Shown here: positions 44,101-47,100 of the stretch, piece by piece
How the letters are laid out: each line of letters opens with the position of its first letter
Position numbering within the stretch: the first letter of the stretch is position 1
Assembly (NCBI RefSeq): GCF_013167455.1
Contig: NZ_CP038328.1
Reading direction: 5' to 3' (one strand)
From: Escherichia coli O157:H7
GTDB lineage: Bacteria > Pseudomonadota > Gammaproteobacteria > Enterobacterales > Enterobacteriaceae
DNA length: 64,000 bases
Made by a program: the position numbers

Positions 44101-47100
44101 CGCCGGTCTGGTGTTTTTAGGCGCAGGCGTTTTCTCATGGCTAAGCCTTGAACCGGTGATCTTGCAGCGTCTGCGTAGTTCGGGAGAATTACCCACGGCA
44201 CTGCGGACATCACTCGGCATTCAGCTCGCTCCTGCGCTGGTGGCCTGTAGTGCCTGGCTGAGCGTCAACGGCGGCGAGGGTGACACGCTGGCGAAAATGC
44301 TTTTCGGTTATGGACTGCTGCAACTGCTGTTTATGCTACGTCTGATGCCATGGTATCTCTCCCAGCCATTTAATGCTTCATTCTGGAGTTTCTCGTTCGG
44401 CGTATCTGCACTGGCAACCACCGGTTTGCATCTGGGGAGTGGCAGCGATAATGGATTTTTCCATACGCTGGCGGTGCCGCTGTTTATCTTTACCAATTTT
44501 ATTATTGCAATACTGCTCATCCGTACTTTGGCGCTTCTGATGCAGGGAAAATTGTTAGTCAGAACCGAGCGCGCCGTTTTAATGAAAGCAGAGGACAAAG
44601 AATGATCATTCGTGACGAAAATTATTTTACTGATAAATATGAATTAACCCGCACACACTCTGAAGTACTGGAAGCGGTGAAAGTGGTTAAACCGGGTAAA
44701 ACGCTGGATCTGGGCTGTGGCAATGGTCGTAACAGTCTTTACCTGGCAGCCAATGGTTATGATGTTGACGCATGGGATAAAAATGCCATGAGTATCGCCA
44801 ACGTCGAGCGCATTAAATCCATTGAAAATCTGGATAATTTACACACCCGGGTCGTTGATCTGAATAACCTCACATTTGATGGAGAGTACGATTTTATTCT
44901 TTCGACTGTGGTGCTGATGTTCCTTGAGGCTAAAACCATCCCAGGGCTGATTGCCAATATGCAACGTTGCACTAAACCTGGCGGTTACAACCTGATTGTG
45001 GCGGCGATGGATACCGCTGATTATCCATGTACCGTCGGCTTCCCGTTTGCCTTCAAAGAGGGAGAATTACGTCGATATTACGAAGGCTGGGAGATGGTGA
45101 AATACAATGAAGACGTCGGCGAGCTGCACCGCACCGACGCCAACGGTAATCGTATTAAACTGCGTTTCGCCACGATGCTGGCACGTAAAAAATGACCCGG
45201 TAAGAACAAAGCGCGTGAAAATTCCCCACGCTGAGATGGTTTACTGTCCTTCTTTTCGGTAAGCATATTTTTTATCGAAGGGATGTGAAATTAATCACAG
45301 TAGTCGAAGTTTTTTAGCAGCTTAACTTACTGAAATTTAACTACTGATGATTGACTTAGCCCCTTTTGCGGCATTGACTATGTCGTCTGAAAAGGGGCTA
45401 AAAAAATTTATTTTCACCAACACTTTTTTTGCCACAACACGAAGCGGCGCTTTTTGCTATAACTTAAAAAGTAATATAATCATCTCAGGAAACTATTCAT
45501 GCGTACCACATCATTTGCGAAAGTTGCAGCTTTATGCGGCTTGTTGGCTCTGTCTGGTTGTGCCTCTAAAATCACCCAGCCAGATAAATATTCTGGTTTT
45601 TTAAACAATTACTCTGATTTAAAAGAAACAACCTCGGCTACAGGTAAACCGGTTTTACGTTGGGTAGACCCGAGTTTTGATCAAAGCAAATATGACAGCA
45701 TCGTCTGGAACCCAATCACTTATTATCCGGTACCGAAACCTTCGACCCAGGTAGGGCAGAAAGTTCTGGATAAAATTTTGAACTATACCAACACCGAAAT
45801 GAAAGAAGCGATAGCGCAGCGTAAACCACTGGTTACCACCGCGGGGCCGCGTAGTCTGATTTTCCGTGGGGCCATTACCGGTGTAGATACCAGCAAAGAA
45901 GGGCTGCAATTCTATGAAGTGGTTCCTGTTGCATTAGTGGTTGCGGGGACGCAAATGGCTACAGGCCACCGTACCATGGATACTCGCTTGTATTTTGAAG
46001 GTGAGCTGATTGATGCAGCGACTAATAAACCGGTTATCAAAGTCGTTCGTCAGGGCGAAGGTAAAGACCTGAATAACGAAAGTACGCCAATGGCTTTCGA
46101 AAATATTAAACAAGTTATTGATGACATGGCGACCGATGCCACCATGTTTGACGTTAACAAAAAGTAGTTCCAGACGCGCCATCGTTAGATGGCGCTTTTT
46201 ATTATCGGTTTCTGTCAGCGATTAAATTCAACACCACGTAACAAACGCCTCCGGCAATTAATCCCCAAAACGCAGAACCAATCCCGACCAGCGTCAATCC
46301 ACTTGCCGTTACCAGAAATGCCACCACCGCCGCGTCGCGCTCACGCTCATTATGCAGCGCCTGATACAAACTGCCGCCAATGGTACTCAACAGCGCCAGA
46401 CCTGCCAGCATCTGGATCCAACTTACGGGCAGGGCAGCCATCATCCCGGTAATGGCACTACCAAACAGACCTGCGAGCAAATAGAAAATGCCTGCAACGG
46501 CAGCTGCCAGCCAACGTTGATCTTTATCCGGATGCGCTTCCGGGCTTTGGCAAATAGCCGCGGTGATTGCCGCAATACCGACGGAATAAACGCCGAAAGG
46601 GGAAAAAACCAGTGCCAGCAATCCAGTAAACACAATCAACGGCGAAACAGGAGCCGAATACCCGGCTGCTTTCATTGCTGCGATACCCGGTGCGTTTTGC
46701 GATGCCATCGTCACCAGAAAAAGGGGGAGTGCAACGCTCAGGCTGTGAGCAAACGAAAAATCAGGGGTAATATAAGTGGGGAGAACGGGTTTAAAGACAA
46801 CATCAGTTGTGACAACGTCACCTTGCGCGATAACGATCACGATCCCAATAATCATCGCGGCAATTACCGCATAGCGCGGCGCAACGGCCTTGGTTGCCAG
46901 CCATACCAGCAACATACTTCCACACAACGTAAATTGACCGTCCAGACTGGCAAACGCCTGTAAACCAAAGCGTAATAAAATCCCGGCAAGCATTGCTGCC
47001 GCAAGCGAGTGCGGAATAATGCGCATCAGACGAGCAAAGAGTCCCGTTATGCCGCAGAGGACTATTAACGCGTTGGTGACAATAAAAACGCCGATGGCTT

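What the first reader, a model, noticed from the sequence alone, without database searches (positions are those of the whole stretch)
45357..45400. Perfect 11-bp inverted repeat with 22-nt loop in the ydcL 5' region
TAGCCCCTTTT...AAAAGGGGCTA forms a long stem about 100 bp upstream of the ydcL start, followed by an A-run, so it is not a terminator on either strand. It could be a transcription-factor site or a 5'-UTR structure.
Basis: seen in the sequence. Interest (0 to 1): 0.3.

Follow-up and report, generated by a model that had tools for sequence, protein, structure and literature searches.

The report
tehAB 3'-end hairpin overlapping a ydcL promoter
The inverted repeat is real and conserved, and most likely folds as an RNA stem-loop at the end of the upstream tehAB message in the slot where related bacteria carry an ordinary terminator; it is not a ydcL leader structure, so it is a fairly ordinary feature.

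Summary
The window is E. coli O157:H7. The repeat exists but is slightly larger than reported: perfect 12-bp arms at 45356-45367 and 45390-45401, 22 nt apart. As + strand RNA, 7 further inner pairs form, giving a 19-bp hairpin (-26.4 kcal/mol, z -5.2). It is single-copy, present in about 5,400 of 5,426 E. coli genomes, and has no Rfam match.

In 80 Enterobacteriaceae genomes a strong hairpin sits about 100-140 nt upstream of ydcL. Yokenella, Pseudenterobacter and Enterobacter have a canonical terminator of the upstream gene there. Escherichia, Citrobacter and Salmonella have a hairpin with no adjacent U-tract. The Citrobacter/Salmonella version has compensatory changes in 9 of 10 pairs. G-U pairs favour the tehB/ydcL sense strand.

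Published SMRT-Cappable-seq data for K-12 show a tehAB transcript that excludes ydcL. They also show two ydcL start sites. One corresponds to window 45470, downstream of the repeat. The other corresponds to about 45388, inside the repeat, so that RNA carries only the 3' arm.

Best reading: a 3'-end stem-loop of tehAB mRNA without a U-tract, overlapping a minor ydcL promoter. No 3' end has been mapped there, so this is inferred. The transcription-factor-site and ydcL 5'-UTR readings are disfavoured. Interest is low.

The parts
44602..45195 (+). tehB coding sequence. It is the last gene of tehAB, the transcription unit whose RNA can contain the complete hairpin.
   Evidence: ORF list. K-12 annotation gives tehB at 1501562-1502155. 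TehB homologues lie upstream of ydcL in 41 fetched loci.
45196..45355 (+). tehB 3' untranslated region before the hairpin. Positions 45205-45325 are an Escherichia-specific block.
   Evidence: Alignment A2: the block is absent in Escherichia sp. MOD1-EC7003 (L001) and in Citrobacter and Salmonella, where the hairpin starts about 30-40 nt after the tehB stop codon. The + strand fold has z -3.15.
45351..45356 (+). TTGACT, a -35-like hexamer for the upstream ydcL start site (P2). This assignment is inferred.
   Evidence: It lies 19 bp upstream of GACTAT and is invariant in 7 Escherichia lineages. The start site itself comes from PMC6131387.
45356..45367 (+). 5' arm of the perfect inverted repeat (TTAGCCCCTTTT).
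45368..45374 (+). 5' side of the inner helix (GCGGCAU). It pairs only on the + strand, through two G-U pairs.
   Evidence: RNA fold, compared with the - strand fold.
45375..45379 (+). Apical loop (UGACU).
   Evidence: RNA fold. The sequence CATTGAC-TAT is invariant within Escherichia.
45376..45381 (+). GACTAT, a -10-like hexamer for P2 that lies in the loop and inner helix. This assignment is inferred.
   Evidence: It ends 7 nt before the mapped start site 1502347, which corresponds to window 45388.
45380..45386 (+). 3' side of the inner helix (AUGUCGU).
   Evidence: RNA fold.
45387..45389 (+). 3-nt bulge (CUG). It contains the mapped ydcL P2 transcription start at about 45388.
   Evidence: SMRT-Cappable-seq start site 1502347 in NC_000913.3, mapped through L081 position 1848. 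Start sites were clustered within 5 bp and needed more than 4 reads.
45390..45401 (+). 3' arm of the perfect inverted repeat (AAAAGGGGCTAA). It is the only arm present in P2 transcripts.
45402..45414 (+). Tail AAAAATTTATTTT. An A-run, not a U-run, abuts the stem. The tail belongs to the conserved ydcL upstream region.
   Evidence: Homologous to AATTTGTGC.. in other genera.
45455..45463 (+). TGCTATAAC, the extended -10 element of the main ydcL promoter (P1).
   Evidence: TTGCTA is invariant, and T45460 and A45462 are nearly invariant, across 14 genera. It ends exactly 7 nt before start site 1502428, which is window 45470. An RpoS-holoenzyme SELEX peak lies in this spacer (PMC5493296).
45470..45470 (+). 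ydcL P1 transcription start. It gives a 29-nt leader that lacks the hairpin.
   Evidence: SMRT-Cappable-seq start site 1502428, mapped through L081 position 1929.
45499..46167 (+). ydcL coding sequence (DUF3313 lipoprotein).

Best explanation
The repeat acts as a sense-strand RNA stem-loop at the 3' end of the tehAB message. RNA polymerase that starts at the tehA promoter transcribes through tehB and its roughly 160-nt 3' UTR, and the nascent RNA folds into a 19-bp hairpin. The hairpin occupies the position where related genera have the upstream gene's intrinsic terminator. In the Escherichia-Citrobacter-Salmonella clade the adjacent U-tract is missing.

The hairpin therefore most likely does one or both of two things. 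It may give weak termination over the all-A/U stretch AAAAAUUUA. Or it may act as a barrier to 3'-to-5' exonucleases that defines and stabilises the tehAB 3' end after termination further downstream. Either way it limits read-through into the ydcL promoters.

The same DNA also holds a minor ydcL promoter (P2). Its -35-like element sits just 5' of the left arm, its -10-like element in the loop, and its start at the base of the right arm. The hairpin cannot form in ydcL's own mapped transcripts.

Shown: the structure, its conservation and covariation, its position, and the published start sites. Inferred: that tehAB transcripts end at or are trimmed to the hairpin, and by which mechanism.
For: 1. 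The hairpin is stable and non-random.
2. It is single-copy and present in 5,406-5,412 of 5,426 complete E. coli genomes. The GCCCCTTTT/AAAAGGGGC core is kept in E. albertii and cryptic Escherichia clades, and changes there are almost all UA, UG or CG swaps that preserve pairing.
3. The positionally homologous hairpin in 17 Citrobacter and Salmonella genomes has 92.9% of cells paired and 9 of 10 pairs with compensatory double changes. None of 500 shuffles reached that, and pairing collapses when the partner columns are slid.
4. Strand asymmetry: I counted 34 G-U cells against 5 A-C cells from the tables. The + strand fold is the more stable in 23 of 27 clade members. This points to RNA of tehB/ydcL sense.
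5. In L001, Citrobacter and Salmonella the hairpin starts about 30-40 nt after the tehB stop. Yokenella and Pseudenterobacter (both after tehB) and Enterobacter (after an ABC-transporter binding-protein gene) have a canonical hairpin plus U-tract at the same -100 to -131 position.
6. The roughly 95 nt between the hairpin and ydcL is homologous across genera and contains the invariant TTGCTA core, with T45460 and A45462 nearly invariant.
7. SMRT-Cappable-seq (PMC6131387) reports a tehAB operon (b1429|b1430) without ydcL. It reports ydcL start sites at window 45470 and about 45388.
8. [quoted passage not shown]
Against: No 3' end has been mapped at the hairpin. Adams et al. 2021 list no curated Term-seq 3' end between 1492156 and 1504927, and no Rho-termination region in the tehB-ydcL spacer. 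This may only reflect low tehAB expression in LB and M63 media.

The SMRT-Cappable-seq operon table shows only that tehAB transcripts do not fully cover ydcL. It does not show where they stop.

The excess of C over G downstream is not seen in Citrobacter or Salmonella.

Within Escherichia there are no double compensatory changes, so selection for the fold there rests on conservation and wobble-compatible changes.

A start site inside the repeat means part of its conservation, especially the invariant loop and the TTGACT, may be due to the promoter rather than the RNA fold.
Confidence: 0.5

Rival explanations
1. DNA-level operator. The two arms flank the -10 region and start site of the ydcL P2 promoter: the left arm at -32 to -21 and the right arm at +3 to +14. 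A dimeric or tetrameric regulator, or cruciform extrusion, would control P2 through them.
For: The mapped start site 1502347 lies between the arms. The arms are perfect 12-mers in O157. Their centres are 34 bp apart, about 3.2 helical turns, so roughly on one face of the helix. ydcL responds to Rob deletion and to iron in expression studies.
Against: Arm sequences are not conserved outside Escherichia, while pairing is conserved with compensatory changes. Mismatches are mostly G-T rather than A-C, which matters for RNA but not for a protein-bound palindrome or a two-sided cruciform. K-12 itself has a T-G in the outer stem. A 22-nt spacer is unfavourable for cruciform extrusion (established knowledge). 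No marbox better than background was found.
Confidence: 0.12
2. Decaying relic. The repeat is a former intrinsic terminator of tehB that lost its U-tract and now has no function. It persists in Escherichia only because divergence is low and it overlaps a promoter.
For: Canonical terminators occupy the same slot in other tehB-linked genera. There are no double compensatory changes within Escherichia. No mapped 3' end exists.
Against: The hairpin without a U-tract is maintained across Escherichia, Citrobacter, Salmonella and Intestinirhabdus, with strong covariation in Citrobacter and Salmonella. The stem changes seen in Escherichia keep pairing.
Confidence: 0.12
3. ydcL leader structure. An unmapped, condition-specific promoter upstream of 45356 would give ydcL a long leader that begins with this hairpin, acting as a 5' stabiliser or regulatory stem-loop. 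One candidate is a promoter driven by the CRP-like site at 45284-45299.
For: A perfect TGTGA-N6-TCACA site lies 57 nt upstream of the hairpin and is conserved in Escherichia. The fold favours the sense strand.
Against: Both mapped ydcL start sites exclude the full hairpin. No sigma-70-like promoter is detected between the CRP-like site and the hairpin. Citrobacter, Salmonella and L001 have the hairpin about 30-40 nt after the tehB stop, with no room for an intergenic promoter. Genera with a canonical terminator in this slot must start ydcL transcription downstream of it.
Confidence: 0.08
4. Part of a small RNA. Either a sense RNA derived from the tehB 3' UTR, or the antisense 'Ssr15' predicted in Shigella, would use the hairpin as a structural module.
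For: The tehB 3' UTR is predicted to be highly structured on the + strand (z -5.1 with the hairpin and -3.15 without it). Ssr15 was predicted in the equivalent Shigella spacer on the opposite strand (PMC4782007).
Against: There is no Rfam match. There is no U-tail for a stable or Hfq-bound 3' end. Ssr15 carries no RT-PCR validation mark in the paper's sRNA table, unlike other candidates. The - strand fold is weaker. There is no covariation outside the terminal hairpin. No curated Term-seq end lies in the region.
Confidence: 0.05

Closest known systems
[quoted passage not shown]
   Same: A stable stem-loop downstream of a stop codon. No uridine-rich tail and no upstream A-tract. Mild excess of C over G in the downstream sequence. 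The fold favours the sense strand.
   Different: No steady-state 3' end and no bicyclomycin-sensitive region has been reported at this site. Very little DNA is available for a Rho-loading site, because the ydcL promoters follow within 70 nt.
Canonical intrinsic (Rho-independent) terminators
   Same: A G+C-containing stem with a short apical loop. It sits at the end of a transcription unit, in exactly the slot where Yokenella, Pseudenterobacter and Enterobacter carry a canonical terminator.
   Different: The stem is followed by AAAAA, and the first U-run starts 6 nt after the stem. The consensus scan does not call it.
Intercistronic and 3' stabiliser hairpins that block exonucleases, such as REP stabilisers in malE-malF (recalled from established knowledge, not tested here)
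   Same: A stable hairpin between two co-oriented genes, followed by an A/U-rich single-stranded stretch that would suit RNase E cleavage.
   Different: It is single-copy rather than a member of a dispersed repeat family. A tehAB-ydcL co-transcript was not reported.
Terminator-promoter overlaps in compact intergenic regions
   Same: A mapped start site and promoter-like hexamers lie inside and around the hairpin of the upstream unit.
   Different: The promoter elements are weak (TTGACT-19 bp-GACTAT). The start site rests on one dataset, and I could not confirm it independently.

Membership tests
Canonical intrinsic terminator | Stable G+C-containing stem with a short loop in the sense RNA | tested here: met
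   19 bp in total, 5-nt loop, -26.4 kcal/mol, z -5.2.
Canonical intrinsic terminator | U-tract starting 0-2 nt after the stem | tested here: not met
   The tail is AAAAATTTATTTT. The consensus scan finds no terminator at this site on either strand. Citrobacter gives the same result.
Canonical intrinsic terminator | RNA 3' ends mapped at the site in vivo or in vitro | tested here: inconclusive
   No curated Term-seq 3' end between 1492156 and 1504927 in MG1655 grown in LB or M63. Low tehAB expression could explain this. tehAB transcripts do not cover ydcL.
Protective 3' stem-loop of a Rho-dependent transcript (Dar and Sorek 2018) | Stable stem-loop not followed by a U-rich sequence | tested here: met
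   Defining features taken from PMC6061677.
Protective 3' stem-loop of a Rho-dependent transcript (Dar and Sorek 2018) | C over G enrichment downstream (Rho-loading region) | tested here: inconclusive
   16 C to 8 G in 45402-45481, the 98.6th percentile of the window. C is still only 20% of bases, and the bias is absent in Citrobacter and Salmonella.
Protective 3' stem-loop of a Rho-dependent transcript (Dar and Sorek 2018) | Bicyclomycin-sensitive read-through and a precise steady-state 3' end at the stem base | tested here: inconclusive
   Adams 2021 supplementary file 2 lists no Rho-termination region in the spacer. The nearest + strand regions are at 1499587 and 1503424. No 3' end is listed. 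A direct experiment is not possible with these tools.
cis-regulatory structure in the ydcL 5' UTR | The whole element lies downstream of a ydcL transcription start | tested here: not met
   Start sites are 1502428 (window 45470) and 1502347 (window about 45388, between the arms). The P2 leader is predicted unstructured.
Transcription-factor operator palindrome | Arm sequence conserved among orthologous promoters, with half-sites at a typical spacing | tested here: not met
   Arms differ completely between Escherichia (GCCCCTTTT) and Citrobacter or Salmonella (CTGCGTTCAGCA) while pairing is kept. The arm centres are 34 bp apart.
Dispersed repeat families (REP/BIME, ERIC and similar) or mobile-element ends | Many copies per genome | tested here: not met
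   Median of 1 place per genome in 5,406 genomes, even with sensitive blastn at E-value 10. One copy in the window.
Any curated RNA family (Rfam 15) | Covariance-model match at or near the gathering score | tested here: not met
   The best overlapping matches score 17-23 bits against thresholds of 51-79 bits, with E-values from 0.5 to 8.6.

The most novel reading that the evidence does not exclude
The inverted repeat is a dual-use element. As RNA it ends or stabilises tehAB transcripts. As DNA it houses a second ydcL promoter, with the -10 element in the loop and the start site at the base of the 3' arm. tehAB transcription, supercoiling-driven hairpin extrusion or an unknown arm-binding protein would then switch ydcL between its two promoters. 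This would be a coupled terminator-promoter switch conserved in Escherichia.
Probability: 0.1. Interest if true: 0.4.

Novelty: new member of a known kind. Interest (0 to 1): 0.18.

Why it matters
The practical value is annotation. The analysis places the end of the tehAB unit and both ydcL promoters, P1 at 45470 and P2 at about 45388. It also shows that the hairpin should not be read as a ydcL riboswitch-like leader or as an operator.

More generally, it is a clear comparative example of a terminator slot kept across Enterobacteriaceae. In one clade (Escherichia, Citrobacter, Salmonella) the U-tract has been lost while the stem stays under selection. This fits the view that many 3' stem-loops serve mRNA 3'-end definition and stability rather than classical intrinsic termination. 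Nothing here would surprise a specialist much.

Tried and rejected
- Rfam scan at permissive E-value: only sub-threshold noise.
- Repeat-family or mobile-element origin: rejected because the element is single-copy.
- Coding potential: the 85-codon ORF at 45347-45604 is not conserved. Open frames across the hairpin vary from 22 to 87 codons among Escherichia lineages.
- Marbox (MarA/SoxS/Rob) search, prompted by ydcL down-regulation in a rob mutant: the best matches have 4 of 14 mismatches, which is background.
- Sigma-54, Fur-box and matS-like readings of the loop and flanks: checked by eye against remembered consensus sequences and dropped. They are poor matches and not conserved among Escherichia lineages. 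No tool test was run.
- Alternative pairing of the 3' arm with GCGCTTTTT at 45447-45455 in the P2 leader: not supported. The leader's predicted fold is weaker than that of shuffled sequence.
- Conserved structure in the rest of the tehB 3' UTR: RNAalifold gave a positive (penalising) covariation term, and only the terminal hairpin is robust.
- A first automated hairpin classifier with fixed window sizes failed for many loci and was not used. A second rule-based classifier under-calls terminators whose Ts are absorbed into the stem or number only four, so I use it only descriptively.
- Searches for direct 3'-end or 5'-end data gave nothing or were not held: Dar and Sorek, Conway 2014, Thomason 2015, TERMITe, the 3'-UTR valves paper, the Rend-seq annotation paper and Cappable-seq 2016.
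Full report
**Observation**

The window matches E. coli O157:H7 at 100% identity across the spacer. 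The local genes are tehA (43505-44605), tehB (44602-45195), ydcL (45499-46167, a DUF3313 lipoprotein) and ydcO on the opposite strand.

The inverted repeat is real and one pair longer than reported. TTAGCCCCTTTT (45356-45367) and AAAAGGGGCTAA (45390-45401) are perfectly complementary, with 22 nt between them. The exact pattern occurs once in the window and never in 100 shuffles. Perfect 12-bp inverted repeats with short gaps occur at three loci in the window, against about 0.18 positions expected.

Folded as + strand RNA, the stem extends by seven inner pairs, two of them G-U. The result is a 19-bp hairpin with a 5-nt loop and a 3-nt bulge: -26.4 kcal/mol, z -5.2. The - strand folds less well, at -22.7 kcal/mol. 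The stem is followed by AAAAATTTATTTT. The consensus scan calls no intrinsic terminator on either strand.

**What it is not**

- No Rfam family matches.
- It is not a dispersed repeat or a mobile-element end. About 5,400 of 5,426 complete E. coli genomes carry it, almost always once, and no RefSeq record annotates anything there.
- No conserved ORF spans it.

**Comparative anatomy**

I built a YdcL protein alignment and used it to fetch 80 loci from species-representative Enterobacteriaceae genomes. tehB lies upstream of ydcL in 41 of the 81 loci held, counting K-12 (L081). Other genes lie upstream in the rest, for example an ABC-transporter binding-protein gene in Enterobacter.

Nearly every genome has a strong hairpin about 100-140 nt upstream of the ydcL ATG. 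Three cases show a textbook hairpin plus U-tract at that position, called by the scan tool at -101 to -131:
- Enterobacter, after the ABC-transporter gene.
- Yokenella, after tehB.
- Pseudenterobacter, after tehB.

In Escherichia, Citrobacter, Salmonella and Intestinirhabdus the same slot holds a hairpin whose tail is A-rich.

The roughly 95 nt between hairpin and ATG is homologous across genera. In it TTGCTA is invariant, and T45460 and A45462 are nearly invariant. In most Escherichia a roughly 120-nt block (45205-45325) separates the tehB stop from the hairpin. In Escherichia sp. MOD1-EC7003, Citrobacter and Salmonella the hairpin follows the stop codon by only about 30-40 nt.

**Selection on the fold**

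The Citrobacter/Salmonella hairpin differs in sequence (for example CTGCGTTCAGCA...TGCTGAGCGCAG) but aligns to the same position. I tested it in 17 genomes:
- 92.9% of cells are paired.
- 9 of 10 pairs show compensatory double changes.
- 0 of 500 shuffles reached the observed values.
- Pairing drops to 26-52% when the 3' partners are slid by 1-3 columns.

Within Escherichia (7 lineages including E. albertii) the GCCCCTTTT/AAAAGGGGC core is invariant or changes through UA, UG and CG swaps. There are no double changes. K-12 itself has a U-G pair where O157 has U-A.

I counted 34 G-U cells against 5 A-C cells in the tables. The + strand fold is the more stable in 23 of 27 members of the clade. 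These cells are not independent events, so the asymmetry is suggestive rather than proof. It does point to RNA of tehB/ydcL sense, not to a protein-bound palindrome or a two-sided cruciform.

**Experimental anchors from the literature**

SMRT-Cappable-seq captures 5'-triphosphate ends. The protocol includes an RNase If step and a second streptavidin capture, needs more than 4 reads per start site, clusters starts within 5 bp, and maps to NC_000913.3 (PMC6131387). Its operon table reports:
- tehAB (b1429|b1430) from start site 1500535, without ydcL.
- ydcL alone from start sites 1502428 and 1502347.
- ydcL-insQ from 1502347.

I mapped these through the K-12 locus. Start site 1502428 is window 45470. 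That is exactly 7 nt after TGCTATAAC, the extended -10 element I had inferred from conservation. It is also close to an RpoS-holoenzyme SELEX peak in this spacer (PMC5493296). Start site 1502347 is window 45388, in the bulge 2 nt before the 3' arm.

The first ydcL leader therefore lies wholly downstream of the repeat. The second contains only one arm and is predicted unstructured (z +1.5). TTGACT (45351-45356) and GACTAT (45376-45381) fit a weak promoter with a 19-bp spacer. This would explain why the loop sequence CATTGAC-TAT and the GATTGACT flank are invariant in Escherichia. I could not confirm P2 in a second dataset.

On the 3' side, Adams et al. 2021 list no curated Term-seq 3' end between 1492156 and 1504927. 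They list no Rho-termination region in the spacer; the nearest + strand regions are at 1499587 and 1503424. The tehAB 3' end is therefore unmapped, plausibly because expression was low under those conditions.

**Mechanism**

The only known transcripts that can contain both arms are those that enter from tehB. The hairpin sits in the terminator slot, is under selection as sense RNA, and lacks the U-tract. tehAB transcripts do not extend through ydcL. The best-supported reading is a 3'-end stem-loop of tehAB mRNA (confidence about 0.5). I cannot distinguish three sub-variants:
- Weak termination over the all-A/U hybrid AAAAAUUUA.
- Termination downstream followed by exonuclease trimming back to the stem. 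This is the class Dar and Sorek described: stable stem-loop, no U-rich tail, mild C over G downstream. The C:G ratio here is 16:8.
- A processing or stability barrier in occasional read-through RNA.

Rivals are a DNA-level operator or cruciform acting on P2, a functionless relic of a terminator, a leader from an unmapped upstream promoter (perhaps CRP-dependent), and a small-RNA module. Each is argued in the Rival explanations section.

**Comparison and verdict**

The element works like a terminator-position 3' stem-loop. It fails the U-tract criterion of canonical intrinsic terminators. It meets the sequence-level criteria of the protective stem-loops of Rho-dependent transcripts, but the defining experimental criteria (a mapped 3' end and bicyclomycin sensitivity) are unmet or untested. 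It is a new member of a known kind. The only mildly unusual point is a promoter start site mapped inside the stem-loop. Interest is low, at about 0.18.

Noticed in passing
window 45284-45299: A perfect CRP-type core, TGTGAAATTAATCACA. It is the only TGTGA-N6-TCACA in the 64 kb (0.06 expected) and is conserved in K-12, E. albertii and cryptic Escherichia clades that carry the long spacer. Its centre is about 96 bp upstream of the P2 start and 178 bp upstream of P1. Its target promoter is unknown.
   Followed up: partly
window 45213-45231 and 45262-45289, - strand: A terminator-like hairpin on the - strand (GCGTGGGGAATTTTCACGC followed by GCTTTGTTCT) and a - strand promoter-like pair (TTCACA, 16 bp, TATGCT). 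Together they would give an antisense RNA of about 50 nt next to the tehB stop. This fits the 'Ssr15' prediction for the equivalent Shigella flexneri spacer, which carries no RT-PCR validation mark in that paper's table (PMC4782007).
   Followed up: partly
window 45205-45325: An Escherichia-specific block of about 120 nt in the tehB 3' UTR. It is absent from Escherichia sp. MOD1-EC7003 (L001), Citrobacter and Salmonella. The + strand RNA of 45196-45355 folds better than shuffled sequence (z -3.15) and the - strand less so (z -1.6). No covariation supports a conserved fold.
   Followed up: partly
window 46167-46202: ydcL and ydcO are only 34 bp apart here. K-12 MG1655 has IS609 (insQ and the yncK pseudogene, 1503161-1504908) inserted between them, and SMRT-Cappable-seq reports ydcL-insQ read-through transcripts there.
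   Followed up: no
window 58336-58370: The other long perfect inverted repeat in the window (CGTACTGTCAGA, 11 nt, TCTGACAGTACG) is identical to the sequence at a curated Term-seq 3' end in MG1655 (1517039, - strand, antisense to patD; Adams 2021 supplementary file 1). It is a documented 3'-end hairpin.
   Followed up: partly
window 45359-45369 and 45447-45457: The left-arm sequence GCCCCTTTTGC recurs as GCGCTTTTTGC immediately upstream of the P1 extended -10 element. The 3' arm could in principle pair with either copy, but the P2 leader is predicted unstructured.
   Followed up: partly
L006-L025 (Citrobacter and Salmonella), about -95 to -60 from the ydcL ATG; window 45404-45440: A conserved motif downstream of the hairpin. 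It reads AATTGTGC...CCATTTTT in Citrobacter, Salmonella and Enterobacter, and AAATTTATTTTCACC...TTTTTTTGCCACAAC in Escherichia. It lies upstream of P1 and may be an upstream promoter element or a regulator site for ydcL. Expression studies report that ydcL responds to Rob deletion and to iron.
   Followed up: no
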